Of a DNA stretch of 64,000 bases, positions 5,401 to 58,005 are shown in pieces (position 1 is the first letter of the stretch; every line of letters starts with the position of its first letter). The translations under genes and the position numbers were made by a program. Origin of the DNA: Candidatus Nomurabacteria bacterium. GTDB lineage: Bacteria > Patescibacteriota > Minisyncoccia > Phycocordibacterales > UBA9973. The stretch lies in contig JAPLXP010000014.1 in the NCBI GenBank assembly GCA_026396015.1, positions 15,944 through 79,943 on the forward strand. The letters run 5' to 3'. The notes beneath the pieces are model-generated. The model was not told the origin of the DNA and ran no database searches. It saw only the letters and a program-made list of their open reading frames with translations.

Positions 5401-6068
5401 TTGAAAATTGTGTATATAGCTTCAGCACCGATACTTGCATCAAAACAAGAACCGTACTTTAGACTAAAGTGGTGGTAGGCTATTTCATTTAAAACTTTTC
5501 CTGGAATTATCTCGCCGATCTCTCTCTTTGTATTTGAAAGAAGTTCTTTTAATTTTTCTTTTGTTTCTTCGTCATTTGCACCCTTTATCTTTGATTTGAA
5601 TTCACTATCAAGATTCTTAATAACTTCATCTTTTTCAGATTGGTGAACATTGATGATGATGTATCCAGCAAAGTAAATAACTTTTTCCAAATCAGAAACT
5701 GAAATGTTCAAAAGTGTAGACATACGACTTGGTACTCCACGTAGGAACCAAATGTGTGCCACAGGTGATGCAAGGTCGATGTGACCCATACGATCACGAC
5801 GAACTATAGAGCGAGTAACCTCAACTCCACATTTTTCACAGACGATATCCTTGTAGCGAATACGTCGGTATTTTCCACAGTAACATTCGTAGTCTTTTTC
5901 TGGTCCGAAGATTCTTTCGTCGAATAGTCCAGAGCGCTCTGAGCGGCCTGTACGGTAGTTTATTGTCTCGGGCTTTGTAACTTCTCCATATGACCATTCA
6001 CGAATACGATCAGGGCTAGCGAGGGAGAGTGTGATTGAATCAAAATCTGTTGTATCTATTGTTTTCAT
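2442..6068 (-). CDS. rpoC: DNA-directed RNA polymerase beta-prime subunit
   Basis: 1208 aa with [14 protein letters not shown] catalytic motif. Zn-binding Cys near the N-terminus. Confidence 0.97.
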
Positions 6069-6092
6069 AATTTTAATTTTAATTTTAATCTA

Positions 6093-9000
6093 TTAAAAAT
6101 TCCCCTTACGTAGATCGACGTCCAGTGCTAGTCCACGGAGATATGCTAGTAATACATTGAATGATGCTGGTACATTTGGTTCACCGATTGGCTTGCCTTT
6201 GATAATCGCATCGAATGTCTGTGAACGTCCAACGATATCGTCAGATTTGATAGTGAGCATTTCGCGGAGTGTATAAGCAGCTCCATGACCTTCCAATGCC
6301 CACACCTCCATTTCTCCGAAACGTTGCCCTCCACCTTGAGCTTTACCTCCGAGTGGCTGTTGAGTAATGAGTGAGTACGGACCGATTGAACGCATGTGCA
6401 GCTTGTCTTCCACCATGTGGTGCAGCTTGAGCATGTACATATAACCGATAGCGATATCCTGGTCAAAAGCATCACCTGTACGTCCATCGTAAAGTGTAAC
6501 CTTACCTGATTCTGGCATTCCTGAAGCTACTAGTTCAGCTTTGATTTCTGGAACTGTCGCAGATGTAAATGGTGGAACGATAGCCTGGTATCCGAGTGTG
6601 TGTGCAGCATAACCCAAGTGCATTTCTAGGACCTGTCCTAGGTTCATACGAGATGGAACACCGAGCGGAGTTAGAACAACATCCACAGGAGTACCGTCTG
6701 CCATGAATGGCATTTCTTCCTCTGGCAAGATAACAGAGATGACACCCTTGTTACCGTGACGTCCAGCGAGCTTGTCACCCACTGAGATATTTCTGATTTG
6801 TGCGATTTCCACGATGATACGCTTGATGATACCTGATTCTAGATTGTGACCTTGATCACGTGAGAATATCTTGATACCAACAACACGTCCCTTCTTGCCG
6901 TGTTCAAGACGTAGAGAACTGTCTTTTACATCACGAGCTTTTTCAGTAAAGATAGAACGTAGTAGGCGCTCTTCTGGAGTAAGTTCTGTCTCACCCTTTG
7001 GAGTGATCTTACCTACGAGAATATCGTTTTCACGGATTTCAGCACCGACAGTAATGATACCGTCTTCATCCAAGTCTTTCAATTTATTTTCACCAACGTT
7101 TGGAATATCACGAGTTGTGACCTCGGGTCCGAGTTTTGTATCACGCACGTTACATACGAATTCTGTAACATAAATACTTGTGAATTTACTCTTCTTTACA
7201 AGACGCTCTGATAGGATGATCGCATCTTCGTAGTTTGCACCTCCCCATGACATGAATGCTGTGAGTACGTTCTGACCAAGAGCAATCTGACCACGATCAG
7301 TAGTAGATGTATCTGCTAGAACCATACCTTTTTTCACAGTCTCACCCATAGACACACTTGGTCTCTGGTGGAATGTAGAGAAGTTGTTTGTACGAGAAAA
7401 TGTAACGAGTGGATATGTATGATCTTTGCCTTTGTCATCTGTAACTGTAACTTTCTTTCCATCAACATATGACACCTTACCATTTACCTCTGATACGACT
7501 AGACGTCCAGATGAACGAGCAGCAAGTTCTTCCATACCAGTAGCAACCAACGGTGCTTCTGGAGTTATGCAGGCCATAGCCTGCTTTTGCATGTTACTTC
7601 CCATGAGTGTACGGTGACCGTTATCGTGTTCTAGGAATGGAATCATAGAAGTAGCAATAGAGAATGGCTGGTTTGTAGCCACGTCGATAAAGTCTATTTC
7701 ATCGCGCTTCACTATTCCAGGATTTGTCTTGATACGAGCTTCAACATATTCTTCAGAGATTTTTCCAGCTTCATCGTACTTTACACCAGCATGAGCGATG
7801 TTGTACTTTTCTTCTTCAAGAGCATTCAAATACACCACTTCGGAAGTGATCTTACCTTTGTTTACTTTGATGTATGGAGTCTCGATAATACCGAATTCAT
7901 TGATCTTTGCATAGGTAGACAAGTGCAAGATAAGACCGATGTTTGGACCTTCTGGAGTGTGGATAGGACATACACGACCGTAGTGGGATGTATGCACGTC
8001 ACGAACTTCTAGACCTGCACGCTCGCGAGTAAGACCTCCGGGTCCGAGTGCTGACAGAGTTCTGAGGTGCTCTACTTCGGCCATCACGTTTTCTTGGTTC
8101 ATGAATTGTGAAAGCTGGTTAGCTGTGAAGAATTCCTTGATACGAGCCTGAAGTGGACGCTGGTTTATGATCTGGATTGGCATTGTAGTACCGACGTCTA
8201 TAGTAGACATACGGTCTTGAACATTACGCTTGATCTGAGCCATACCCATGCGAACTTTTTGCTGGAACATTTCTCCGACATAGCGGACACGACGCTGACC
8301 TAGGTGGTCGATATCGTCTGCCTTTGCATGAGGATCAGAATTTAGAGCTGTAATATGAGAGATGATAGTAACTACGTCTTCTGCAGAAATAACACGACGC
8401 TCCATTTCTTTTGCATCCATGTTCTTTTCAAAACGCTTGTTGAAACGGAAACGTCCAACAGGAGAAAGATCATAACGCTCGTTTGAAAGGAGTGTAGTTA
8501 TAAAATCACGAGCATTGTCTGGAGTAGCTAGGTCACCATCACGAAGACGCTTGTATATCTCGATATATGAGTCAGATAGTGTCTTTGCTGGATCCTTTTC
8601 GATACATGCATTGATTACCTTCAATAGGGCCTCATCTTTACTGAAAGCTTTGGTCATAGCTTCATCGGTATGCATTCCTAGGACACGCAAAAGAGACGCA
8701 ATTGAAAACTTGCGCTTTTTATCGATGCGTACATATATAGCACCATCTGGATCTGATTCTATTTCAATCCAAACTCCACGTGCTGGGATTATCTTTGCAC
8801 CAAAATATCTCTTACTCTTCATTTCCTGATCAGTAAAGAAAACTCCGAATGAACGAGTAAGCTGAGGAACGATAACACGCTCTACTCCATTGATAATGAA
8901 AGTACCGTGCTTTGTCATCAACGGCACATCTGCCATGAAGATTTCCTGCTCTTTTGTTGTACCTAGGCTTTTGTTTAGAAGACTAACGCGAGTTTTTAGT

Positions 9001-24523: not shown

Positions 24524-24557
24524 AAAATCTGCCTAGGTCCGACCTAGGCAGATTTTT
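24524..24557. repeat. REP-A palindrome copy 1 (aaaatctgcctaggtccgacctaggcagatttt)
   Basis: 14-bp perfect stem with tccga loop, overlapping the RAYT-A stop. Identical copy at 25257..25290. Variants at 24943..24967 and 39466..39490. Confidence 0.85.
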
Positions 24558-25233
24558 AAATACTGTAATTTTCAAAAAAATCAAACAATTCCCTCGTGTG
24601 ATTTACACGAATATGATCTGGTAATATTTGCCTATCTATTATTTTAGAATACTTTCTGCTGTCCACAAAGTAATCAAAGAAACTAGAGTACTTATATTTT
24701 TTCAAATAATCTATTGTTTTATTTTTATCGTTAATACCATTTATTTTCCAATCTTTTTGGATCAATTTTACAGGGTTCAAGTGAACATAAGAAAAAAGAT
24801 AGTTAAAATAATTCTCTTCACCCACATGATTAGATTTAAATTTTCCCTCAAATAAAGAGCCTGTGCGTCCATATTTTTTATTAAAATACATTGAGTACGA
24901 AGTAGAAACTTTACGAATAAATTCAGTTATAGGATTAAACTTTTCGCCTAGGTCCGACCTAGGCGAAATAAGAATAATATGAAAATGATTTGGCATAAGG
25001 ACCCAAGCTAAAACATTTACCAAAGTTTCCCCTCTTTCAAAATCAAATGAATCAATATTATTTCTAACAATTGAATTTCTAAAATTAAATTTCAGCTCTG
25101 AATTTGCAATATAGAGGAGCTTAGTAAAACGTTCATAATCTTCATCATCTAAAAATATCTGACTCTTTCCATTGCCACGATTGTAGATATGATAAAATTC
25201 GTTTTGCACTAAATTTGTTTTTCGCAATGACAT
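24556..25233 (-). CDS. REP-associated tyrosine transposase (RAYT, IS200/IS605 Y1 HUH family), copy A
   Basis: YHIYNRGN N-terminal motif, HUH motif LMPNHFHIIL, catalytic Tyr region YLFSYVHLNP. Bracketed on both sides by identical REP-A palindromes. Confidence 0.8.
   Translation of the reverse strand: MSLRKTNLVQNEFYHIYNRGNGKSQIFLDDEDYERFTKLLYIANSELKFNFRNSIVRNNIDSFDFERGETLVNVLAWVLMPNHFHIILISPRSDLGEKFNPITEFIRKVSTSYSMYFNKKYGRTGSLFEGKFKSNHVGEENYFNYLFSYVHLNPVKLIQKDWKINGINDKNKTIDYLKKYKYSSFFDYFVDSRKYSKIIDRQILPDHIRVNHTRELFDFFENYSI
24943..24967. repeat. REP-A copy embedded in-frame in the RAYT-A coding sequence
   Basis: ttcgcctaggtccgacctaggcgaa encodes SPRSDLGE just after the HUH motif. Confidence 0.8.
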
Positions 25234-25256
25234 ATTTATATTGTATCAAACAAATA

Positions 25257-25290
25257 AAATCTGCCTAGGTCCGACCTAGGCAGATTTTTT
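25257..25290. repeat. REP-A palindrome copy 2
   Basis: Same 33-mer as 24524..24557. It sits between the RAYT-A start and the stop of the 862-aa surface protein gene. Confidence 0.85.
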
Positions 25291-27877
25291 ATTGTTGTGG
25301 AGTAATTTCTGGGGATGGTGTTTGCGCAGGTGCTGGATTTACAATCACTCCCCCCGCAGGAGCTGGGTTTTCATCCACTACAAGAGGCGCCACAGGCTCT
25401 GGACTCACCACAACTGGAGCAGGAGCATTCACCACTACGCACTCCCCTGGTACTGTCTGCATCGCACCACTCACGACTTTCACACAGAATGGATCACCTG
25501 TCTCCTCATCGTAGATTGTAATACCTGTACGCTTTGCAGGACTACCTATGTGCAAAGTCTGCACAGTCAAATCTTTGATTGATGCCATAGTGCCTGACAC
25601 TTGAGTCACAACTCCACCAAAGAAATCAGACATCAGATTAGATACACCATGACTTCCAAGATTTGAATTCTCGAGAGCCTTCACACGCAAATCCATTGCA
25701 ACTATTTTTGAATTCTCTTCTTTTACAGATGCCATCAGTATTCCGTTTACAGATACTTGATCAATCATATTACCCACCATGAATGCAGGATTTACTTCAT
25801 CTGCGATATATCCAATACGAGTCTTTGCTAGCGGTGAATCTGATCCGTATCCATTTACTTCACGAATATATCTGAATGTATGCAATGGTGCATCTAGAAC
25901 CATTTGCAATGAGGCACTGTAGTCTGTGTAATCTGCTATATCTTGCTTTGTATCACGAGTAGATGTCTGTGCTCCTACCACGGTACCGGCTGTGTCGTTT
26001 GCATTACTTGGTGATGCTGTATTGATGCGAATGTTTCCTGCTGCATCTTGCCATACGTATCCAGCTGTACCAGCTTTACTTTGGAAGTTTATAGATCCAG
26101 CGCCAGTATTTGTAGCATTTGTATTGCGCCCTAGAGTAAACACTGGACCAGCCAAACCAGCACCTAGATCCGAAGAACCTATGTTTAAGGATCCAGTATT
26201 CGTCACATTAAACTTACTCACATAACTTCCACCTCCAGTACCAGCATCAATCAGATATTGAGCACCAGAACCCAAAGTTGTTTCCGTGCGATTGATCCAT
26301 AAATCTGTCGCTGCTGCTGTACCTGTCTGACTGAGATTTGGAGTTATTTTAAGAGTAGAATTATTACCTGAAGATTGTGTCTGGGAACCAGTACCAAGTG
26401 TCACATATGCAGCAGTGGTAGAAATAGATTGATTACCAAATGTCATTCCCAAATTGCTTGCTGCTCTAAATATAGTAGAAGTCATTCCATTTGGGGCATA
26501 CGCAGAACTAGATGTCACAAAAAATTGACTTGATCCATTTATTTGTAAATCGATAAGAGAGCCCGTATAACCCGTAGCTTCATTTACAGCTAAAGATGTT
26601 CCGCCTGCTTGACCTATAAATTTACCAGCGGTTGACCCATCGAATGCATTTCCTCCGATAGATAATGTGCCGTAAGCTGTAACTGCAGTAGGTGCTACTC
26701 CGATGGTCAATTTACTTGCTGGGGTGATTGTGCCGATACCCAACCTATGATTTGTAGAATCCCAATAGAATTGACCTCCAGCTGTAGTATCTTGGGAAAG
26801 CACCCCAGATGTACCAGCAAATAATATTGATCCGATAGTTGGAGTAAAAAATGTTGGAGCACCCGATCCACCAGACACTACAGCCTGACCACTAGTTCCA
26901 GTAGATGTATATGCATGTGCTGTACCTGTACCATATCCGATACCACCAGCTGTCGGAGTAGCAGATGAATTTGTACCTCCTTGAGCTATAGTCACAAGTG
27001 CATTATCTGTGAGGATAGTAGCAGAGATATTTGGAAGAGTGAAAGTCTTTGTCGAAGTAGTAGGACCTGAGAATGAAGTGAACGCATTACCTGTACCACC
27101 ATTTGTAGAACCTAAGGTTCCAGTCACAGTAGATGTACCGAGGGCAACTGTAAATCCAGTACCAGTAGAACCACTAGTGAGTGTGCCCACTGTAGCGATA
27201 TCTGTACCTACGAGCTTTGAAGCTGCGATACTACCAGCTAGGTCAGCATTCAAAACTGCACCTGTAAGCGATAACTTGGAATACGCTATTGAGCCAGCGA
27301 GGTCAGAATTTAAAATTGCACCAGAGAGTGAAAGCTTTGAATATCCGATAGACCCAGCGAGCATAGCACTAGTAACTGCACCAGAATTTATTGTCCAAGA
27401 TGCACCAGATGAAGCTACTGTTATGTCACCTTTGTTGCCATCAGTAACACCAGCCCCTCCACAAGCACCCCATGCAGGTGCACCTGATGAAGCAGAAGTA
27501 AGACACAATGTAGCACCTGCATTTGGAGCTAGCACACTAAGAGCTCCAGTTCCATTACCATATATAATTCCATTTGAAGTAAATGAACCAACTCCTGTAC
27601 CACCCTGGCCGACAGTCACTGCTGCATTAGTAGTCAGCACTGTGGCATTCGCATCTGGAAAAGTAAAAGTACGAGTAACAGTAGGACCTGTCACAGCAAA
27701 AACACCATCACCAACTTCTGACCACCCATGACCTGGATTTGGAGTAGTAGCAAACACAAGCTGAACAACAGAAAAAACTACTACAGAAAATAGCAGAGTA
27801 TAAGCAACATAGTGGAATGAAAATCGTGGTCGGATGGTGTGTAAGAATTTTTTAAATAATAATTTTAAATTAAACAT
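25289..27877 (-). CDS. large Gly/Thr/Ser/Ala-rich surface (tail-fibre-like) protein with C-terminal endosialidase-chaperone (peptidase S74-like) domain
   Basis: N-terminal signal/TM segment. Long G-x-G-T repeats and LAGSIAxSKLSL repeats. LGIGTITPASKLTIG fibre-like motif. C-terminal STRDTKQDIADYTDY...LHTFRYI resembles the intramolecular chaperone auto-processing domain. Pro-rich extreme C-terminus. Confidence 0.55.
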   Translation of the reverse strand: MFNLKLLFKKFLHTIRPRFSFHYVAYTLLFSVVVFSVVQLVFATTPNPGHGWSEVGDGVFAVTGPTVTRTFTFPDANATVLTTNAAVTVGQGGTGVGSFTSNGIIYGNGTGALSVLAPNAGATLCLTSASSGAPAWGACGGAGVTDGNKGDITVASSGASWTINSGAVTSAMLAGSIGYSKLSLSGAILNSDLAGSIAYSKLSLTGAVLNADLAGSIAASKLVGTDIATVGTLTSGSTGTGFTVALGTSTVTGTLGSTNGGTGNAFTSFSGPTTSTKTFTLPNISATILTDNALVTIAQGGTNSSATPTAGGIGYGTGTAHAYTSTGTSGQAVVSGGSGAPTFFTPTIGSILFAGTSGVLSQDTTAGGQFYWDSTNHRLGIGTITPASKLTIGVAPTAVTAYGTLSIGGNAFDGSTAGKFIGQAGGTSLAVNEATGYTGSLIDLQINGSSQFFVTSSSAYAPNGMTSTIFRAASNLGMTFGNQSISTTAAYVTLGTGSQTQSSGNNSTLKITPNLSQTGTAAATDLWINRTETTLGSGAQYLIDAGTGGGSYVSKFNVTNTGSLNIGSSDLGAGLAGPVFTLGRNTNATNTGAGSINFQSKAGTAGYVWQDAAGNIRINTASPSNANDTAGTVVGAQTSTRDTKQDIADYTDYSASLQMVLDAPLHTFRYIREVNGYGSDSPLAKTRIGYIADEVNPAFMVGNMIDQVSVNGILMASVKEENSKIVAMDLRVKALENSNLGSHGVSNLMSDFFGGVVTQVSGTMASIKDLTVQTLHIGSPAKRTGITIYDEETGDPFCVKVVSGAMQTVPGECVVVNAPAPVVVSPEPVAPLVVDENPAPAGGVIVNPAPAQTPSPEITPQQ

Positions 27878-27985: not shown

Positions 27986-29863
27986 TTATCGAATTATGTA
28001 GCCCAATCTAGAAATTTTTTCTGAAATATTGCCCATTATTTGATTTATCTCATCATCAGTGAGAGTTTTTTCATAAGATTGAAAAACTAATCGATATGCG
28101 TAAGAAATTTTTCCAACCTCGCCCGGTACATCTGAGGGTTTTACGAATTTATCTACTAGCTGTGGTTCACGAACGAGCAATTCTGTTCCAAATTCTTTGT
28201 AAATGTTTTTCAATTCATCTGATTCCACATTTTCAGGTACCCACACTGAAATATCGCGAGTCATAAATGGAAATGTTGACCATGACTTGAATAGAATTGA
28301 AGCGGAGTCAGAAGTGCTTTCAAAAATAGTCTGGCCGAGCTCCCCTTTTTCTCCTGCGAGGAGATCCGAGGACTTTTTTGAAAGTACTTCTGATGTAGCT
28401 ATAGTATAAATAAATTCATTTAAACTCGTCTCTTTTACTTCTTTTTTATTCGCAAAACATACATGAATTTCTTCTTTATCTCCAGAGAAAACTGTACCTA
28501 TTTCAAAAATTTTAACTTCATTTAGACCCAAGAATGGAGCATTTAATTTATTCAGATTAAAACTCTCTTTTAGGCCATCAATCAAATTCTTTCTCAAAAA
28601 ATTTTTATCAGAAGCAGAGGCTAATACTTCTATATCCCCTTTATTTGTAAAGCCATATGTCATCACCTCGCGATATCCATCACGAAGTAGAATTTCTTTT
28701 GCTTTCAAAATATTTTCATATACATCGTTCACTTTTGAGACAAAAGAAAGCTTTGGAATTGTCGGGATGACCTTGTCGTAACCTATCACACGTCCAATCT
28801 CTTCAGCCATGTCATTCATCGTCACGAGATCGCGACGAGCTAGTGGTATTGTGACAGTCCATTCCCCTTTTTCAAAGTCATTTGCATAACCAAAACTATA
28901 ATCATTCATAAATTTTTCAATCTGCTGATTTGAAATTTCCAAACCTAACATTTTTGAAATATATTCTGTCGTGAATTTCAGAGTTTTTTGAATTTCAGGA
29001 TTTGGGTATACATCTACGATGTCCTCAAATACTGCCTCCGGGAACATTTCAGATATTAATGCAGACAATTCCTTCATAGCAAAAGGGCAAGTCGAAGCTG
29101 AAAGATTATTCTCAAATCTTTTTGCTGAATCAGTCAGGATTCCTAGTCTGCGCGCAGTCTTGCGGACTGTAGCAGCATCAAAACTCGCAACTTCAAGTAA
29201 TATATCTGCAGTAGAGTCAGAAACTCCTGAATCAAATCCACCTTTGACTCCAGCGAGAGCTAAAGTTTTTTCTCCGTCAGTGATGACTAGATCATTTGAT
29301 TTTAATTTTGCGATGGTACCCTCTCTGCCTACCAATTTTAATTCTTCTCCTTCAATTGCATTGCGAACTACAATAGTTTCATTCGCAAATTTACTCAAAT
29401 CAAATGAATGAGTGGGATTTCCACAATTGTACATTACTAAATTTGTCGCATCTACAATATTATTTATCGAGCGTTGACCTATTGATTCTAGATGAGTGAC
29501 TACCCATTCTGGAGATGGACCAATCTTGATTCCACGTACAATACGCCCCATATAGCGATTACATCTATCTGTATCTAATGTAATTTTTAGATTTGTAGGT
29601 TTTGGTTCTGGTATCTTGTATACACGATCAGGGTCATTGAAATTCAGGCCCAGCTGTCCTGCGAGTTCGCGAGCCATACCACTATGTGATAGTAGATCTG
29701 GGGCACGATTCGGCAAGATATTCACGTCAAAAATAGTATCACCATTTGGTAATTTTTCTACACCATCCACCTCGGTCAGGTGGTATGTCAAAATATCAGC
29801 TATTTTATCAGCCTCGGGAATTTCTGGTATATACCATTTGAGCCAGTTGTAAGATATTTTCAT
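27986..29863 (-). CDS. pheT: phenylalanyl-tRNA synthetase beta subunit (reduced, 625 aa)
   Basis: MKISYNWLKWYIPE N-terminus, B3/B4 and B5 regions, C-terminal ferredoxin-fold anticodon-binding domain. Confidence 0.9.
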   Translation of the reverse strand: MKISYNWLKWYIPEIPEADKIADILTYHLTEVDGVEKLPNGDTIFDVNILPNRAPDLLSHSGMARELAGQLGLNFNDPDRVYKIPEPKPTNLKITLDTDRCNRYMGRIVRGIKIGPSPEWVVTHLESIGQRSINNIVDATNLVMYNCGNPTHSFDLSKFANETIVVRNAIEGEELKLVGREGTIAKLKSNDLVITDGEKTLALAGVKGGFDSGVSDSTADILLEVASFDAATVRKTARRLGILTDSAKRFENNLSASTCPFAMKELSALISEMFPEAVFEDIVDVYPNPEIQKTLKFTTEYISKMLGLEISNQQIEKFMNDYSFGYANDFEKGEWTVTIPLARRDLVTMNDMAEEIGRVIGYDKVIPTIPKLSFVSKVNDVYENILKAKEILLRDGYREVMTYGFTNKGDIEVLASASDKNFLRKNLIDGLKESFNLNKLNAPFLGLNEVKIFEIGTVFSGDKEEIHVCFANKKEVKETSLNEFIYTIATSEVLSKKSSDLLAGEKGELGQTIFESTSDSASILFKSWSTFPFMTRDISVWVPENVESDELKNIYKEFGTELLVREPQLVDKFVKPSDVPGEVGKISYAYRLVFQSYEKTLTDDEINQIMGNISEKISRLGYIIR

Positions 29864-29868
29864 ATATT

Positions 29869-30573
29869 TTAAAATTGATTAAGTCTCAAGTCTCCCTGGT
29901 AAAGAAGTCGTACATCTGGAATATTCCATTTGATCATAGCAATACGATCGAGTCCTCCTCCAAAAGCAAAACCTTGGACCTTTTCCGGATCAAGACCTGC
30001 ATTCTTCAGTACAGTCGGATGAATCATGCCACCCCCCATCATCTCTAGCCATTTACCATTGAACTTTGCATGCACTTCTACAGAAGGCTCGGTAAAAGGA
30101 AAGAAACTAGGACGGAATTCTATCTCCACATCAGGACCTAGAACTTTTTTATAGAATTCTACGAGCACACCCTTCATATGAGAAAGATTTATATTCTGAC
30201 CTATCATGAATCCATCAATCTGGTGGAATTGCATCTCATGAGTAGCGTCAGTCGATTCATTGCGGAAAACTTTACCAACAGAAATATACGCGCCCTCTGT
30301 CATATTTTCTTTTGCCATCTTTTCTAGGTTGCGAGCAGTAGTATTTGTAGCATGAGTACGGAGAACTGCATCAGGAGAGTTTTTGATATAAAAAGTATCC
30401 TGCATATCACGAGCAGGGTGATCCTTTGGCACATTTAGTGCGTCGAAGTTGTACCAAGTAGTCTCGAGCTCTGGAGCGAGAGATACCTCGAATCCAAGGC
30501 CAGTAAATAGATCGTAGGCCTGATTCTGTAGGATAGTTAGTGGGTGAAGTGACCCCTTTTCATATTCATTCAT
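29869..30573 (-). CDS. pheS: phenylalanyl-tRNA synthetase alpha subunit (catalytic core only, 234 aa)
   Basis: Class II motifs FRPSFFPFTEPSVEV and GGGMIHP. Lacks the N-terminal coiled coil. Confidence 0.9.
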   Translation of the reverse strand: MNEYEKGSLHPLTILQNQAYDLFTGLGFEVSLAPELETTWYNFDALNVPKDHPARDMQDTFYIKNSPDAVLRTHATNTTARNLEKMAKENMTEGAYISVGKVFRNESTDATHEMQFHQIDGFMIGQNINLSHMKGVLVEFYKKVLGPDVEIEFRPSFFPFTEPSVEVHAKFNGKWLEMMGGGMIHPTVLKNAGLDPEKVQGFAFGGGLDRIAMIKWNIPDVRLLYQGDLRLNQF

Positions 30574-30591
30574 ACGTTTAAATATAGCATT

Positions 30592-31027
30592 TTACCCTAA
30601 TTTTTCCAAAAGCTCTTTCTTCAATTTATACCCATCCCCCCACTTCAGCATACCTAAATAAGAATTCACGCTCTCTTCTTTAAAATTATTCTTTTTCAAA
30701 TTCCTAAACATTCTCTTCTTTGTCGCTGTTCGTAATACTCTATTATTAGCAATAATGTACCCAGCCTAGGAAATCAAGTCCTGATGCTAGAGTTTTAATA
30801 TATACTTTTTCTGGATGTAGTTGTAGTTTTAAATTTTTATTTAAAAAATCTGAAATTACAGGTAAAAAATTCTCAAGATATAATTTATCATCAGAAAGTA
30901 TCACAAAATCATCCGCATATCTCTCGTAGTATTTTACTTTTGATTCAGCGGAATCATGTCGCTTATCTATTCTGCATGAATACGAATCGTATATAAATTT
31001 CTTGTCGAAATATGGGTGTCGTTGTCA
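30592..31027 (-). pseudogene. reverse transcriptase remnant (DGR/retron-type RT motifs 5-7 plus C-terminal tail), N-terminally truncated and frameshifted
   Basis: Minus-strand translation gives ...KVKYYERYADDFVILSDDKLYLENFLPVISDFLNKNLKLQLHPEKVYIKTLASGLDFLGW then a stop. The next frame continues (G)YIIANNRVLRTATKKRMFRNLKKNNFKEESVNSYLGMLKWGDGYKLKKELLEKLG*. The YADD box, FLG(Y) motif 7 and the SYLG..K.G..YKL tail typical of DGR RTs are present. Motifs 1-4 are absent and no frame is open upstream. Confidence 0.65.
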
Positions 31028-31236
31028 AACTTGTTCACATTGAGCTTCAAGCAACCATCGTCATCAAAGTTGACATCAGCAACAAAGAAATTATAAGATA
31101 TCCCATCTATTCCACTGCATATTAAATCATAATAATGCTGTATTTTATTTTGAACCAAGAGTTCAAAGAATATCTTACCTACAAAATATTTTTTATTGGT
31201 TTCTACTATGATCACGCTTTGAGAAGATATCTCCAC
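30967..31236 (-). other. truncated paralogous fragment of the DGR target C-terminus carrying the template repeat (TR); track ORF of 89 aa
   Basis: Encodes ...NFFVADVNFDDDGCLKLNVNKFD, the TR version of the VR peptide FFVADVRFDDDGCLKLYVDGFD. The rest is not homologous to the target. Probably not an independent functional gene. Confidence 0.5.
31017..31092 (-). repeat. DGR template repeat (TR)
   Basis: 67-nt core identical to the VR except at 7 positions, plus 2 flank positions. At every mismatch the TR coding strand has A. TR codons AAC/AAT/AAC/AAG correspond to VR CGC/TAT/GAC/GGG. Confidence 0.8.
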
Positions 31237-31396
31237 TCAAATTCTGGATAATAACAAAAACATACCTTTTATCCTAAGTTTCAGTATAAAGATTAAGTAA
31301 TAGACCGAGGATATCAAAAGAATACGAGTTTAGTATACAAAAATCCCCCAGTACACGCAAAGTGTCTGAGGGATTAAGAAATTAAGGGTCTAAATT

Positions 31397-32077
31397 TTAA
31401 ATTACTGAGTGAACAAGCGCTGTAGCTGGGACAACAACACGAGACTGATTGCTCGCACACCAAACATCGATGTAGTCAAACCCGTCCACATAGAGCTTCA
31501 AGCAACCATCGTCATCAAAGCGGACATCAGCAACAAAGAAACTTTCGCCTTCCTTAAAAAGAAAGAATGTGGCATAGCCATTTGTACGAAGTTTATCTTT
31601 ATTTTTTTCACAGAAGTTTTTGATTTGCGCCTGGGTCATACAGAGTGCTTCTAAATCCTTATTGAAAGAACCGAAAATAGTCCTGTAATCGCCATCCTTG
31701 TGCATCTCAAATACTTTCATTTCGGATTTCTCCGTTTTAGGTTGAGTATTAATTAAATTCCAATCTTTTAAATTGGTACTCAAGTACCCTGTAAACAAGT
31801 CTCCTGCATAATGAAGTCCTGACTCTTTTGTACCTCCGCATTCATCAACAAAAATTTCTTCTTCACAATGCAACTCGGTAAGGTGGGATGTTTTTACAGG
31901 TTCAGTGGACTTTAATCCAAAAATCTTCATCCTATCTTTAAGACTCATTTTGTGAAAACCAATAAGACAATTTATGTAATCAGAGTTTTGTTTTCTGTAC
32001 GCTGACCATAAATTTTTGTCTACTTCTTTTTGTAGGCCTTCAATGTTTGAAGGATCTACGATGAATTTTTGTATCAT
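31397..32077 (-). CDS. DGR target protein (226 aa) with variable repeat near C-terminus
   Basis: C-terminal ...ESFFVADVRFDDDGCLKLYVDGFDY... contains the VR. Otherwise no recognised domain. Confidence 0.6.
   Translation of the reverse strand: MIQKFIVDPSNIEGLQKEVDKNLWSAYRKQNSDYINCLIGFHKMSLKDRMKIFGLKSTEPVKTSHLTELHCEEEIFVDECGGTKESGLHYAGDLFTGYLSTNLKDWNLINTQPKTEKSEMKVFEMHKDGDYRTIFGSFNKDLEALCMTQAQIKNFCEKNKDKLRTNGYATFFLFKEGESFFVADVRFDDDGCLKLYVDGFDYIDVWCASNQSRVVVPATALVHSVI
31475..31541 (-). repeat. DGR variable repeat (VR)
   Basis: See TR. The VR sits ~450 nt upstream of the TR on the + axis, inside the target gene's 3' region. Confidence 0.8.
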
Positions 32078-32227
32078 CTTTTTGTTTTTAAATAACTAGA
32101 TCGTTAGTTCACTAGTTCAGGAGTATTATATCACAAAATATGCCTGCAAGTCAAGCTTAAAAAGGCTATATTTTAAAGGGTTTTGTGTGGATATTGCAGG
32201 ATTTAATAGATTATGATACAGTATACG

Positions 32228-32392
32228 TACTAGTGGCTTCGGCCTCCGAGAAAGCTCCCGCAAGGGAGCTTTCGATTTTATACTTGCAGTCTATATAACA
32301 GTATGGTATTATAAAAATATTGAGAGGTTGCCTCTCTTGCTCGCAAGAGCCGATAGCCCCGCAAGGGGCTATTATAATTTATAAAGCTTACT
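32228..32392 (+). ncRNA. candidate structured small RNA: cluster of tetraloop-capped hairpins (1 UUCG, 3 GCAA, 1 UUGC)
   Basis: Hairpins ggcTTCGgcc (32235-44), gagaaagctcccGCAAgggagctttc (32248-74), gagaggTTGCcctctc (32322-36), gctcGCAAgagc (32339-50) and atagccccGCAAggggctat (32353-72). Possible promoter ttgcag-17-tacagt at ~32195-32223. GNRA loops appear only in + orientation. No overlapping protein gene except a spurious 62-aa track ORF. Confidence 0.35.
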
Positions 32393-32764
32393 AAAGTATT
32401 CTTGTATTTTAGAATATTCTTCGTCTGAAAGAATATATTTCCTCTCTGTAAGTCTCCTCTTGTCAAAACTACGTATCTGATACACTAGTGCTGTATGCAA
32501 AATACCGTCATCTGTTTTTATAATACAAGAATATTTTCTATTTTTAACTTTTGAGGTAAGTGGTATACCAATAAAACTTTCACTACCTTCGGCATTTATC
32601 ACAAGAACTGGTCTTGTATAATCATCCCCTTTACCATACACCTCACTACCCACATTCATCCCAATACTACACCACCAAATTTCTTTTTCTTGTGGATGAT
32701 TAAATGTTTCATTTTGATCAATCTTTATTTTCTTTTTATTCCACTTATCAAAATCTTTATCCAT
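32372..32764 (-). CDS. MazF/PemK/EndoA-family endoribonuclease toxin, no adjacent antitoxin gene
   Basis: VGSEVYGKGDDYTRPVLVINAEG...IGIPLTSK and ALVYQIRSFDKRRLTERKYILSDEEY align with B. subtilis EndoA (VGSEQGGVRPVLVIQND...; LLEQIRTIDKQRLTDK...). It has a ~35-aa N-terminal extension. Confidence 0.75.
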   Translation of the reverse strand: MDKDFDKWNKKKIKIDQNETFNHPQEKEIWWCSIGMNVGSEVYGKGDDYTRPVLVINAEGSESFIGIPLTSKVKNRKYSCIIKTDDGILHTALVYQIRSFDKRRLTERKYILSDEEYSKIQEYFSKLYKL

Positions 32765-32796
32765 ATTTAAATTATATCACTACTAACCCCTGAGTT

Positions 32797-35778
32797 CTAT
32801 GCTGATTTATATATTCTAGCCCTCGCGCAGTTTGGACATACGGAATCCCTGCCGTAGGATTTGAAATTACATGGACGGTTTATCCACACACCAGTTTTTA
32901 AATCTCTATCATACTCAGTAATATCACGGACCAATAGATCAATCTCCTCATTTGTGATACTCGTCTTGTAAATACCATTCTTGTCTCCCTTTTTGGCCTC
33001 TAGGAATTCCAATTGAGATTCTGATACTCGATCATTGTTATTCGCACCGTGAATAAGGTACGAGTACATTGCGAGTTGTCGCATATAGCTACTCATACTC
33101 TCGTTTTCGCCCCGTTTTTCAATTTCTGATTTTGTTTTTACGCTACCTGTCTTGAAATCCGTCACTCGAAAAGTATTTTTTTCTATCTCCTCTGTCAGGT
33201 CCACCTTTCCATAGAAAAGTAAGCTTGGAAAGCGAGAATCTCGATACGATAGCGGTCGCTCTGTCATATAATTCTTTATATTGGGCAGTCTTTCCTTTAC
33301 CCAGACAGATACTATTCCGACAGCTTCTTTTTGTAATCTTTTAACCATTGATTCTTCATAAATATTTTGCTTGTGTATCTGATCGAGGATTATATCTTCA
33401 AGCAAATCTCCGTTCTTCTTCAATACTTGCTCGATCGTACCGTGAACCACATTACCAAAGACTAGACTCTCAGAAACTACGTCCGGCAAGCGCAATAGAT
33501 TCCTAAAATACCACTTCCATGGGCATTCAAAAAAGTTGTTCAGCATCGTCACCGATACCTTTGTCTTTTGGTATTCCTCAGCGACCATATCGGTCAGATC
33601 TTTCGTTGAAAAATCTACCTCTGCATGAGGTACAGCAGTGACATATGATTTTGGGTCCCTGCTCAGAATTTGTTCTTCTACTTGATTGAAATTTTTCTTT
33701 ATAAATAGGTCTTCTGGCAGTTCCGCGATGATATGTGACAATTCCTGATCGCCACCTGTATATGAGTATCTAGAATATGAAAAAGTACAGAATCGCTTTG
33801 CTCGAGTCAGTGCTACATAGAGCTGCTTTTTCACCACTTCAGCATCTTTTTCTTCTATTTTATTTTGTACATCTTCTGGGAGTGTGAATGCCTGCTTTTT
33901 GCCATGCATCAATGTCTTTTCATCCATATGAGCCACCCAGACGAAATCAAATTCCAATCCTTTTGAGGAGTGAAGTGTCAGAACCTTTACACCTTTGTCG
34001 CCATAGAATACGTCTAGTGGTAGATCCTCGCCATAAGATTTGAGTCGGTCGATAAAGTCGATAAATCTTTTCAGTGTGAATTTCTGATGCTCCCGCTCGC
34101 TCTTTTCCCTCTCCCCTTGCGCTAGGTGCAGTACTGTACGCACCACCTCCACGCGACGAATCAGATCATCGTGATTCTCTGCTGTATCTAGTAGTAGACT
34201 CTCGCCCACATATTGGACTAATTCGTACACATCACGAGTATTGGATTCCTCAATATAGGATTTCAATTTATCACCCCAGGAATTCACTGGATCAATACCT
34301 GTAAATAAATCTTTTTTGCCGCCACCGAGATCCTCTACGGATAGCTTGTAAGTATTCACACTCTGCAAAAACTTATGTGCCGAGAGTGGTGGTATCTTAT
34401 TTATCGGATCAAACAAAGATTCAGAGATAGAGATATTGTCATATGGATTTAATACTATTCGAAGTGCCCGAATCAGAGTATCTGCCTCGGGTACACCAAA
34501 GAGTGTCAGTATGCCTGATGAAGCCACAGGTATACCGCGATCTCGGAGTATCTGCACAGCGTTTTTGACTTGATAATTTTTTGGCACAAGAATCGTGCAT
34601 TCATCAGGACTCACACCATCTGCCACCTTCGCCTCTATCTCCATAGCAGCAGCAATGATCTCGTCACGAGGATATTCGCATTCATAGAGCTGTAGTTTAT
34701 GCATCTCTCCATGATTACTCTTGAGTTTTTCCAGTGTCATCGAACTTCGCAGTAGTGTGTCTGCACTATCGAGAATCGCCTGTGTAGAACGATAATTCTC
34801 CACCAATGTGATCAACTTTGCTTTACCAAAAAGCGTCTTAAAACTCTCAAAATATTCGATAGACGCACCCCCAAAACCATAGATGAGCTGTCGGTCATCA
34901 CCCACAACGAATATATTTGGCAATTCTGTATCGTGCCAGATAGCACGAAGTATCGCATTCTGCGTAGCACTACTATCCTGATGCTCGTCTACGAGTGCAT
35001 ACAGATATCGCTCGCGAATAGTCGCCTGTGCATCATCGGAATTTACCAGAATATGCCATGCGTATTTGAGCACATCATCATAATCACAGAGACCTCGCTC
35101 CTCTTTTAATTTCTCGTATTCACGATAGAAAATTACGACTTCTTTTGTCCTCTCGAGTCCATCGATTTTCTTTTCTACTTCTTTTTTAAGTTGTCCTTTG
35201 CTCTCGCCACGACTAGAAATACTATCCGGGTCATTCTTGATCCGATCAATCTCGAAATTTATAGATGCCAAAAACTCTTCAGGCTTTATATTTTCTCTTT
35301 TCAATAATGAAATCAGACTTTTGATATCTCGGAAAAACATGCCTGAATTACCTCGTGGACGAATGTAGACCCAGCTACCATTCTCTAGAATCTCATCCAC
35401 GAGGGCGATATTGCTCGTCTCATCTAGTATCACCGGTGGCTTTTGCATGTCGAGAACCTGGTGGAATTCCTCGAGTATATTCATAGCAAAACTATGAAAA
35501 GTAGAAATCTTGATCTGTGTAGCTGGAGGGCCAATATATTTCAATAAACGCTTACGCATCTCTTGCACCCCAGAATTAGTAAAAGTTAGACATAAAATTT
35601 CGTTTGGTTGTGTTTGGTTTGAACTATTTAAAATATAAGCAATACGCAGTGACAATACCTGAGTTTTTCCAGTACCGGGACCCGCCACTACCATCACTGG
35701 ACCGTCGATAGTATCTACGGCCAATTTTTGCTCTTTATTTAGCTTTTTATATGCAGAATTATATAAGTCTTGATTCAT
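32797..35778 (-). CDS. UvrD/AddA-like SF1 helicase fused to C-terminal RecB-family PD-(D/E)xK nuclease with Cas4/AddB-like Fe-S cysteines
   Basis: N-terminal LNKEQKLAVDT...VVAGPGTGKTQVL Walker A and UvrD motifs. C-terminal ...FECPWKWYF ... DFKTG...K nuclease core. Terminal RPC-x10-C-x2-C cysteine cluster. No AddB/RecC partner is adjacent. Confidence 0.8.
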   Translation of the reverse strand: MNQDLYNSAYKKLNKEQKLAVDTIDGPVMVVAGPGTGKTQVLSLRIAYILNSSNQTQPNEILCLTFTNSGVQEMRKRLLKYIGPPATQIKISTFHSFAMNILEEFHQVLDMQKPPVILDETSNIALVDEILENGSWVYIRPRGNSGMFFRDIKSLISLLKRENIKPEEFLASINFEIDRIKNDPDSISSRGESKGQLKKEVEKKIDGLERTKEVVIFYREYEKLKEERGLCDYDDVLKYAWHILVNSDDAQATIRERYLYALVDEHQDSSATQNAILRAIWHDTELPNIFVVGDDRQLIYGFGGASIEYFESFKTLFGKAKLITLVENYRSTQAILDSADTLLRSSMTLEKLKSNHGEMHKLQLYECEYPRDEIIAAAMEIEAKVADGVSPDECTILVPKNYQVKNAVQILRDRGIPVASSGILTLFGVPEADTLIRALRIVLNPYDNISISESLFDPINKIPPLSAHKFLQSVNTYKLSVEDLGGGKKDLFTGIDPVNSWGDKLKSYIEESNTRDVYELVQYVGESLLLDTAENHDDLIRRVEVVRTVLHLAQGEREKSEREHQKFTLKRFIDFIDRLKSYGEDLPLDVFYGDKGVKVLTLHSSKGLEFDFVWVAHMDEKTLMHGKKQAFTLPEDVQNKIEEKDAEVVKKQLYVALTRAKRFCTFSYSRYSYTGGDQELSHIIAELPEDLFIKKNFNQVEEQILSRDPKSYVTAVPHAEVDFSTKDLTDMVAEEYQKTKVSVTMLNNFFECPWKWYFRNLLRLPDVVSESLVFGNVVHGTIEQVLKKNGDLLEDIILDQIHKQNIYEESMVKRLQKEAVGIVSVWVKERLPNIKNYMTERPLSYRDSRFPSLLFYGKVDLTEEIEKNTFRVTDFKTGSVKTKSEIEKRGENESMSSYMRQLAMYSYLIHGANNNDRVSESQLEFLEAKKGDKNGIYKTSITNEEIDLLVRDITEYDRDLKTGVWINRPCNFKSYGRDSVCPNCARARIYKSA

Positions 35779-35860
35779 AAACCCATTATACCCCGAGGGT
35801 CAGGAAAATAAAAAAACCACTATAAAATTATATTTTATAGTGGTTAAATACTTTCTTTCT

Positions 35861-36211
35861 CTAATCTTTAACAATTTCTTTAACCTTATCAATTAAATGA
35901 TTGTGTGATTCAAAATTGAAAATTCCAGGACCATCTGGTTTGATGGGTGAAAGTGTCGAAGCTAAAAAAGCTTTGGATTCAGAATTCAATTGCTCAACAA
36001 CAACATGAGGAGCGGACCCTGGGTAGCTAAAATTTGCATAATGCAAATAGAAGTAATCTTCATGAATATGATTTTCAAGATCATCATACTCAATAAATAC
36101 CAATACCATGGATGGCAAGTGTTTTTCAAACGTTTTATTTAAAAGCAAAACATCAACACTACCTCCTTCTAAGCTCTCTAGGAGCACAACTAACTTTTTC
36201 TTCTTATTCAT
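35861..36211 (-). CDS. hypothetical protein
   Basis: 116-aa ORF with coding-like composition. No assignable domain. Confidence 0.4.
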   Translation of the reverse strand: MNKKKKLVVLLESLEGGSVDVLLLNKTFEKHLPSMVLVFIEYDDLENHIHEDYFYLHYANFSYPGSAPHVVVEQLNSESKAFLASTLSPIKPDGPGIFNFESHNHLIDKVKEIVKD

Positions 36212-54795: not shown

Positions 54796-54905
54796 TTCTG
54801 GCGACAACCTACTTTTCCCACGAATGAGTATCATCGGCGCAGATGGGCTTAACTTCCGAGTTCGGAATGTTATCGGGTGTGACTCCATTGCCAAATCACC
54901 AGAAC
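54796..54905 (-). rRNA. rrf: 5S ribosomal RNA
   Basis: Reverse complement GTTCTGGTGATTTGGCAATGGAGTCACACCCGATAACATTCCGAACTCGGAAGTTAAGCCCATCTGCGCCGATGATACTCATTCGTGGGAAAAGTAGGTTGTCGCCAGAAC. It contains the CCGAAC..GAAGTTAAGC and GCGCCGATG 5S hallmarks, and the terminal helix I pairs. Confidence 0.88.
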
Positions 54906-55039
54906 AAAATTTTCAACTAACGTATTGTATCAACAAATTTTGTCGAAAACAATAAACGATGTGTCATGATATGTGAAAACTGAATGCTATTTGATAGAGT
55001 GTCTCCCCGTAGGGAGATATACAAGATTGTTTGTGATTT

Positions 55040-58005
<2,966 letters not shown>

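What the first reader, a model, noticed from the sequence alone, without database searches (positions are those of the whole stretch)
30592..32077. Diversity-generating retroelement: TR/VR pair differing only at template adenines, with a decayed RT
Two 67-nt segments, TR ~31025-31091 and VR ~31475-31541, are identical except at 7 core positions plus 2 at the edges. At every one of these the TR has A on the coding (minus) strand, while the VR has G, C or T. The affected TR codons are AAC/AAT/AAC/AAG (Asn, Asn, Asn, Lys). The VR codons are CGC/TAT/GAC/GGG. AAY codons in the template are the classic DGR mutagenic-retrohoming signature. Outside the core the mismatches stop being A-specific, which marks the repeat boundary. 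The VR lies ~20 codons from the C-terminus of a 226-aa protein of unknown fold. Immediately 3' of the TR is an RT remnant with YADD, FLG(Y) and the SYLG.LK.G.YKL C-tail. It lacks motifs 1-4 and is frameshifted at motif 7. The cassette therefore has a history of diversification but is probably not autonomous now. It could be inactive or served in trans.
Basis: partly seen in the sequence, partly recalled or inferred. Interest (0 to 1): 0.85.

Follow-up and report, generated by a model that had tools for sequence, protein, structure and literature searches.

The report
Broken diversity-generating retroelement, frozen target
This is the wreck of a diversity-generating retroelement in a Candidatus Nomurabacteria genome: the target gene still carries the adenine-specific mutation signature, but deletions have destroyed the reverse transcriptase, its helper gene and part of the template, so this is an ordinary decayed copy of a well-known system.

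Summary
On the minus strand, a template repeat (TR, 31090→31017) and a variable repeat (VR, 31541→31468) lie 451 nt apart. They differ at 10 of 73 compared positions. Nine of these are A in the TR and G/C/T in the VR, at codon positions 1-2 of AAY/AAG codons (P≈8e-6).

The interpretation, a DGR with a decayed RT, holds. Three related contigs (L006, L014, L018) carry the same cassette with its other parts present: target, conserved spacer, 120-nt TR and bAvd on the opposite strand. L006 also has a 294-aa RT; the L014 and L018 contigs end before any RT.

Against L006, the window has:
- a ~719-bp deletion that removed the last 47 nt of the TR, all of Avd and RT codons 1-56;
- a second ~290-bp deletion that removed RT motifs 3-4;
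- a +1 frameshift after motif 7.

No other RT or Avd lies in the 64 kb. The part of the VR that has lost its TR still shows the adenine signature, so diversification came before the deletion. The target (226 aa, no Pfam match) has a confident model whose C-terminal domain resembles C-type-lectin/FGE folds only remotely. Other family members lack any DGR nearby. Degraded DGRs and DGRs in these bacteria are already described, so interest is low to moderate.

The parts
32125..32154 (-). Promoter-like site of the target gene: TTGACT, 18 nt, TG-TATAAT
   Evidence: Consensus scan gives 11 of 12 matches with an extended -10. A TTGAC...TATAAT pair sits in the corresponding region of L006. Function is inferred.
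31397..32077 (-). Target (variable protein) gene. 226 aa, intact ORF, identical to MCX6756496.1 of a Candidatus Nomurabacteria MAG.
31422..31541 (-). Variable repeat (VR), 120 nt, codons 179-218 of the target. Only 31468-31541 still has a local TR counterpart.
   Evidence: Aligns over its whole length to the full TRs of L006, L014 and L018. Mismatches to the local TR are 9 A>N and 1 G>A. In the part without a local TR, 5 of 7 differences from positions invariant in the relatives' TRs are at adenines. The same columns are hypervariable among homologues.
31342..31375 (-). Terminator-like hairpin followed by a T-run, downstream of the target stop codon
   Evidence: Helix 1 of alignment A7: 14 pairs, 94% of cells paired. 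The segment that carries the hairpin is also retained in the DGR-less relative L005.
31093..31325 (-). Conserved, probably structured non-coding leader just upstream of the TR; candidate 5' part of the DGR RNA
   Evidence: 82.7% identical to L006, against 72% for the target CDS. Five lineages aligned. Across the whole 6-helix structure, 16 pairs change on both sides, against 2-5 in slid controls and 6.5±2 in shuffles; 15 of these lie in helices 2-6. Found only in loci that keep a TR.
31017..31090 (-). Template repeat (TR) remnant: the 5' 74 nt of an originally 120-nt TR
   Evidence: Repeat found. Colinearity with L006, L014 and L018 stops at 31017 in all three. TR alignment.
31016..31017 (-). 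Junction of deletion 1. About 719 bp of L006 (5073-5791) are missing: the TR 3' 47 nt, the whole Avd gene and RT codons 1-56.
   Evidence: blastn and local alignments against L006. No Avd anywhere in the window by tblastn.
30959..31015 (-). RT fragment 1, PYFDKKFIYDSYSCRIDK (motif-2 region), corresponding to L006 RT residues 57-75
   Evidence: Local alignment to L006 5792-5848, tblastn and protein alignment.
30948..30958 (-). Junction of deletion 2. L006 5849-6147 is missing (RT residues ~76-175, including motif 3 with its catalytic Asp and the GNLTSQ motif 4).
30752..30947 (-). RT fragment 2: motifs 5-7. YADD lies at 30919->30908 and FLGW at 30772->30761.
   Evidence: tblastn gives 73% identity to L006 RT residues 178-240. 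Coordinates. Pfam and NCBIfam RT hits.
30592..30751 (-). A +1 frameshift (extra base near 30751), then RT fragment 3 (thumb and C-tail ...SYLGMLKWGDGYKL...), with the stop codon at 30594-30592
   Evidence: Translations in two frames. tblastn gives 68% identity to L006 RT residues 241-281 in the other frame.
32372..32764 (-). PemK/MazF-like toxin gene just upstream of the target. This is context; the same neighbour is present in L006.
   Evidence: Pfam PemK_toxin, E 3.7e-12. L006 has PemK at 3386-3799 next to its target.

Best explanation
This is a relic diversity-generating retroelement (DGR) in a Candidatus Nomurabacteria genome.

The ancestral cassette is preserved in relatives. In order it was: promoter, target gene with a 120-nt VR at its 3' end, terminator hairpin, structured leader, 120-nt TR, an Avd gene on the opposite strand, and a ~294-aa DGR reverse transcriptase.

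The inferred mechanism follows the Bordetella phage paradigm. The TR was transcribed with its flanking RNA. The RT-Avd complex copied it into cDNA while misreading adenines. The cDNA then replaced the VR, recoding about 15 AAY/AAG/GAY codons of a lectin-like C-terminal domain.

What the sequence shows for this genome:
- One deletion removed the TR 3' end, Avd and the RT 5' end.
- A second deletion removed RT motifs 3-4.
- A frameshift broke the thumb region of the RT.

The local machinery therefore cannot work, and the target gene, still intact and with its own promoter, carries a frozen VR allele. The RT remnant has no stop codons apart from those exposed by the frameshift, so the decay is probably recent compared with the split from the relatives (inferred).
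For: - Adenine-specific TR/VR mismatches at codon positions 1-2.
- The RT nature of the remnant.
- Intact or near-intact related cassettes. L006 has 13 TR/VR mismatches, 12 at A, plus bAvd and RVT_1 at E 3.7e-23. L014 has 15 mismatches, 14 at A, plus bAvd. L018 has a full-length TR and bAvd.
- Colinearity with all three relatives ends at window 31017, and the RT is split into three pieces.
- No other RT, Avd or target copy in the 64 kb.
- The same sequence appears in an independent Logan assembly, 6938 nt at 100% identity.
- The VR segment that has lost its TR still differs from invariant TR positions of relatives mostly at adenines, 5 of 7.
- VR columns are hypervariable across homologues.
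- In the Bordetella system, RNA downstream of the TR is required for priming and processivity (PMC6182149; bioRxiv 10.1101/2023.10.23.563531). That RNA is deleted here.
- DGR-less relatives show that the family does lose its DGR: L001/L012, L005 and L021.
Against: - The rest of the genome could not be examined. Only 64 kb of an 80-kb contig of a MAG was available, so a second DGR that could supply RT, Avd or even a matching full TR in trans cannot be excluded.
- No read-level data were available to show that the VR is now invariant. The only hints are weak: the protein's 90% cluster holds a single sequence, and the identical protein is on two Logan contigs.
- The ancestral state is inferred from relatives whose targets are about 70-81% identical in protein, not from a sister strain.
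- One TR/VR mismatch (G>A at 31020) is not at an adenine.
Confidence: 0.88

Rival explanations
1. The cassette is still being diversified. A second, intact DGR elsewhere in the genome would supply RT and Avd, and possibly a full-length matching TR, in trans. The decayed local RT would then be irrelevant.
For: Multi-target and remote-target DGRs are known (PMC5758913). The target ORF, its promoter and the conserved leader plus TR 5' part are all intact. The rest of the genome was not available.
Against: There is no RT or Avd in the 64 kb. The local TR has lost its 3' 47 nt and all downstream RNA, and in the Bordetella DGR that RNA carries the priming site and the Avd-binding element. A remote TR would therefore be needed, and no third copy of the repeat exists in the 8 kb around the cassette (repeat finder on 28000-36000). 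tblastn with the L006 target finds only the target gene and the TR region anywhere in the 64 kb. Only one sequence exists in the protein's 90% cluster.
Confidence: 0.07
2. The two deletions and the frameshift are artefacts of metagenome assembly, or belong to a minority variant, and the real population carries an intact DGR.
For: The window comes from a MAG. DGR repeats can confuse assemblers.
Against: An independent Logan assembly of run SRR20698644 reproduces the region base for base over 6.9 kb. Three separate lesions at non-repeated positions are not what repeat-induced misassembly produces. Similar internal deletions and frameshifts occur in other RT homologues of this group (P0080, P0075, L009).
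Confidence: 0.04
3. This is a plain segmental duplication of the 3' end of the gene that has drifted, lying by chance next to a decayed group II intron RT.
For: The best NCBIfam hit of the remnant is the group II intron RT/maturase model.
Against: Nine of 10 mismatches sit on TR adenines, always with A in the same copy (P≈8e-6). Orthologous loci have bAvd and the DGR-type GNLTSQ motif 4. No group II intron RNA reaches the Rfam threshold. The same TR-VR spacing of about 450 nt is conserved in relatives.
Confidence: 0.01

Closest known systems
Bordetella phage BPP-1 DGR (mtd-avd-TR-brt), the prototype
   Same: A TR/VR pair with adenine-specific substitutions in AAY codons at the 3' end of a target gene. 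An RT of the DGR type and an Avd partner are present in the intact relatives. Structured RNA flanks the TR.
   Different: Here the RT, Avd, the TR 3' end and the downstream RNA are deleted. In the intact relatives Avd lies on the opposite strand between TR and RT. The host is a small-genome bacterium of the Candidate Phyla Radiation (CPR), not a phage. No GC-rich IMH-like element was recognised at the VR end.
Cellular DGRs of Patescibacteria/CPR (DGR clade 2 of Roux et al. 2021, PMC8144416)
   Same: The host group is the same. RT homologues come from Parcubacteria, Nomurabacteria, Levybacteria and similar groups. The target is a small chromosomal gene with a C-terminal VR.
   Different: This copy is non-functional. 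Its target family has no Pfam or PDB match by sequence.
Degraded DGRs in cyanobacteria: Nostoc all3226 with remnant TR-VR homology, and the Anabaena sp. 90 RT-only remnant (PMC7517822)
   Same: DGR components were lost after diversification, leaving a target with a remnant TR-VR signature. The authors' idea that the machinery is removed once a variant is selected fits here.
   Different: Here the TR, the VR and the RT pseudogene are all still visible in one locus, so the individual lesions can be mapped against intact relatives.
Treponema denticola TvpA and other CLec/FGE-fold DGR variable proteins

Membership tests
Diversity-generating retroelement (DGR) | TR/VR repeat pair whose mismatches are (almost) confined to adenines of the TR | tested here: met
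   Nine of 10 mismatches over 73 positions are A>N, always with A in the same copy; P≈8e-6.
Diversity-generating retroelement (DGR) | VR inside the 3' part of a protein-coding target, with substitutions at codon positions 1-2 of AAY-type codons | tested here: met
   The VR covers codons 179-218 of a 226-aa ORF. Changes are AAC/AAT/AAG to CGC/TAT/GAC/GGG/TAC, all at codon positions 1-2.
Diversity-generating retroelement (DGR) | Intact DGR-clade reverse transcriptase (motifs 1-7, with the I/LGxxxSQ motif 4) near the TR | tested here: not met
   Only three fragments remain. Motifs 1, 3 and 4 are deleted and there is a frameshift after motif 7. The L006 orthologue is intact, with GNLTSQ.
Diversity-generating retroelement (DGR) | Accessory variability determinant (Avd) gene | tested here: not met
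   tblastn with L006 Avd finds nothing in the 64 kb. bAvd is present, above the Pfam cut-off, in L006, L014 and L018.
Diversity-generating retroelement (DGR) | Complete TR with its 3' end and downstream RNA elements (priming site, Avd-binding stem-loop) | tested here: not met
   The TR stops at 31017, at position 74 of 120. The sequence that follows is RT codon ~57.
Diversity-generating retroelement (DGR) | Ongoing VR variability within the population | not testable with these tools
   No read data were available. The only indication is a single sequence in the 90% protein cluster and an identical Logan contig.
CLec-fold DGR variable proteins | VR displayed on a C-type-lectin/FGE-like fold | tested here: inconclusive
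Group II intron | Intron RNA domains flanking the RT ORF | tested here: not met
   Rfam gives no group II hit at the gathering score. The best is 19 bits against a cut-off of 34, at E 0.33.

The most novel reading that the evidence does not exclude
The conserved structured leader plus the truncated TR may not be dead DNA. They could still be used, as a satellite template, by an RT-Avd pair encoded elsewhere in the genome, so that only the 5' 74 nt of the VR would now be diversified.

Alternatively, the target's VR domain could be a new scaffold for DGR hypervariation rather than a very divergent C-type lectin fold.
Probability: 0.08. Interest if true: 0.55.

Novelty: new member of a known kind. 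Interest (0 to 1): 0.3.

Why it matters
The locus catches DGR decay halfway. Close relatives show the intact cassette, this genome shows the cassette after two deletions and a frameshift, and further relatives keep only the target gene. That series supports the idea that, in small CPR genomes, hypermutation machinery is discarded once a useful variant is fixed.

It also flags a small, unannotated family of CPR proteins as DGR targets or former targets. For genome annotation, it warns that a TR/VR signature alone does not mean an active DGR.

Tried and rejected
- Both metagenome-contig scans returned nothing. One used a TR/VR pattern with N at adenine positions, the other the target-protein alignment.
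- The genome-contig scan returned only two loci, one of them the L006 contig.
- Attempts to reach the rest of the MAG through proteins at the window ends gave only short Logan contigs. The trans-RT question therefore stays open.
- P0071, a Nomurabacteria RT, belongs to a different assembly by accession.
- Foldseek against the PDB, a profile search of PDB sequences, Pfam and NCBIfam on the target, and hhalign against two other CPR DGR targets gave nothing significant.
- Rfam gave no family for the leader or the hairpins.
- I first suspected that the many ~125-aa RT hits meant a recurrent functional half-RT. Inspection showed frameshifts, internal deletions or truncated gene calls instead.

Full report
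**1. The observation**

The window region 30000-33000 was read directly. The repeat finder reports a single long direct repeat in 28000-36000: 31021-31090 and 31472-31541, 70 nt, 90% identical, 451 nt apart. The coding strand is the minus strand.

All seven mismatches in this core have A in the 31021-31090 copy and G, C or T in the other. They fall at codon positions 1 or 2 of the ORF 32077->31397 and change AAC>CGC, AAT>TAT, AAC>GAC, AAG>GGG and AAC>TAC. If 7 mismatches were placed at random among the 70 positions, the chance of all landing on the 17 adenines is 1.6e-5.

Template repeats of relatives show that the true TR continues to 31017. Over those 73 compared positions there are 10 mismatches: nine A>N and one G>A. 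The chance of at least 9 of 10 falling on adenines is 8e-6.

**2. The RT remnant**

Just downstream of the TR on the minus strand, two reading frames together spell PYFDKKFIYDSYSCRIDKRHDSAESKVKYYERYADDFVIL...GLDFLGWVHY, then a frameshift, then ANNRVLRTATKKRMF...SYLGMLKWGDGYKLKKELLEKLG*. The stitched peptide gives:
- Pfam RVT_1 at E 3.7e-6, below the gathering score because only the last third of the model is covered.
- The NCBIfam group II RT model at E 6e-13.
- 500 RT homologues, the closest from Parcubacteria, Nomurabacteria, Levybacteria and other CPR bacteria.

**3. Intact relatives give the ancestral state**

The target protein is identical to MCX6756496.1 of a Candidatus Nomurabacteria MAG. 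It has 55 homologues, none with a Pfam domain. The contigs of three close homologues carry the same cassette in the same order.
- L006: PemK toxin, target, VR 4550-4669, TR 5000-5119 (450-nt spacing), a bAvd gene on the opposite strand (5140-5481) and a 294-aa RT (5624-6508). Its TR/VR mismatches are 12 A>N and 1 G>C. One of them turns the TR's AAG into an in-frame TAG in the target.
- L014 (81% protein identity): a full 120-nt TR and bAvd. The contig ends before any RT.
- L018 (79% protein identity): likewise a full 120-nt TR and bAvd, with the contig ending before any RT.

L014 shows 14 A>N and 1 T>C. The L006 RT has the DGR-type motif 4, GNLTSQ.

**4. The lesions in the window**

Window 32282->31017 is colinear with L006 3795-5072, and in all three relatives colinearity stops at window 31017. 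Downstream of that point:
- Window 31015->30959 matches L006 5792-5848, which is RT residues 57-75.
- Window 30947->30630 matches L006 6148-6464, which is RT residues 176-281, with a frame change near 30751.

Relative to L006, the window therefore lacks about 719 bp: the last 47 nt of the TR, all of Avd and RT codons 1-56. It also lacks about 290 bp that hold RT motif 3 (catalytic Asp) and motif 4, and it has one extra base after motif 7.

tblastn with the L006 RT, Avd and target finds no other copy in the 64 kb. A Logan assembly of run SRR20698644 is 100% identical over 6938 nt across the whole locus, so the structure is reproducible.

**5. Order of events**

The window's VR aligns to the full 120-nt TRs of the relatives. 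In the 47 nt that no longer have a local TR, 7 positions differ from bases that are invariant in the three foreign TRs. Five of these are at adenines. The VR was therefore written from a full-length TR before deletion 1.

The RT remnant has no stops apart from those exposed by the frameshift, and it is as similar to the L006 RT (68-73% aa) as the target is to the L006 target (70%). I take this to mean recent inactivation. This is inference.

**6. Can it still work?**

In the Bordetella phage DGR, cDNA synthesis needs bRT, Avd and RNA on both sides of the TR. The downstream segment binds Avd and supplies the priming site (PMC6182149; bioRxiv 10.1101/2023.10.23.563531). Similar elements are predicted in CPR DGRs.

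All of that is deleted here, so the local TR should be unusable even with a foreign RT-Avd. A remote full-length TR elsewhere in the genome cannot be excluded, because I could not reach the rest of the MAG.

**7. The target protein**

AlphaFold2 with the 55-sequence alignment gives pLDDT 87.6. Residues 60-226 alone give pLDDT 95.0 and pTM 0.91.
- Foldseek against the PDB finds nothing at E<=0.001.
- A profile search of PDB sequences finds nothing significant.

This agrees with the rule that VRs sit on CLec-type folds (PMC8144416), but membership is not proven.

Across homologues the VR columns vary in the pattern FFVAxVxFxxxGxLxLxVxxFxxxxVWxAxxxxRxVVP.

**8. A decay series**

The target family appears in three states:
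- Cassette with TR and Avd present: L006, L014, L018.
- Partly deleted cassette: this window.
- No TR, RT or Avd within 4-5 kb: L001/L012, L005 and the distant L021. The L021 protein is found unchanged on 14 contigs.

L005 keeps the target's downstream sequence, including the terminator hairpin, and then diverges. Degraded DGRs and remnant TR-VR homology have been described in cyanobacteria (PMC7517822).

**9. Verdict**

The finding is a genuine but defunct DGR. It is a new member of a known kind, in a lineage already known to be rich in DGRs. Its value is as a clear, mappable example of DGR loss and as a pointer to an unannotated target family. Interest is low to moderate.

Noticed in passing
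window 31093-31325 (minus strand); L006 4717-4999, L014 1368-1675, L018 807-1120: The non-coding stretch between the target's terminator and the TR is better conserved than the neighbouring genes (82.7% against 72% versus L006). It also shows covariation. Over the whole 6-helix structure, 96.6% of cells are paired and 16 pairs change on both sides, against 2-5 in slid controls; 15 of these pairs lie in helices 2-6, which make up this stretch. It is likely the upstream part of the DGR RNA. Only 4-5 sequences were available.
   Followed up: partly
L006 5140-5481, L014 1819-2157, L018 1262-1591, L008 3022-3528, L009 2976-3401: In these CPR DGRs the bAvd gene lies on the strand opposite to the target, TR and RT. 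In L006, L014 and L018 it starts about 20 nt after the TR, so the RNA downstream of the TR is antisense to avd.
   Followed up: partly
L006 4607-4609: The intact relative's target has an in-frame TAG inside its VR, exactly where the TR has AAG. Adenine mutagenesis has apparently produced a nonsense allele in the assembled consensus.
   Followed up: partly
proteins P0080, P0075; L009 3336-4378; L008 4001-4384: Several other RT homologues of this CPR group are damaged. P0080 (on 11 contigs) and P0075 have internal deletions. The L009 RT has a frameshift, and the gene call there is a 125-aa C-terminal half; L008 has a similar 127-aa half-length call. Decay of DGR RTs may be common in these genomes.
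   Followed up: partly
window 32230-32375 (between the PemK gene and the target): A cluster of GC-rich hairpins with GCAA/CGAA tetraloops sits in an AT-rich intergenic region. One of them (~32250-32273) is conserved in L006 with a compensatory change. There is no Rfam match.
   Followed up: partly
window 32372-32764 (minus): A PemK/MazF-like toxin gene has no recognisable antitoxin ORF next to it. It sits directly upstream of the DGR target both here and in L006.
   Followed up: no
window 24556-27877 (minus): An 862-aa Gly/Thr/Ser-rich protein has a weak Peptidase_S74 (endosialidase chaperone) match at its C-terminus. Next to it is a 225-aa ORF with a weak IS200-like Y1 transposase match.
   Followed up: no
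window 54796-58005 (minus): The 23S and 5S rRNA genes are present, but no 16S gene lies anywhere in the 64 kb. The rRNA operon appears unlinked.
   Followed up: no
window 29869-30573 (minus): PheS is only 234 aa. It consists of the catalytic core alone, without the usual N-terminal extension.
   Followed up: no
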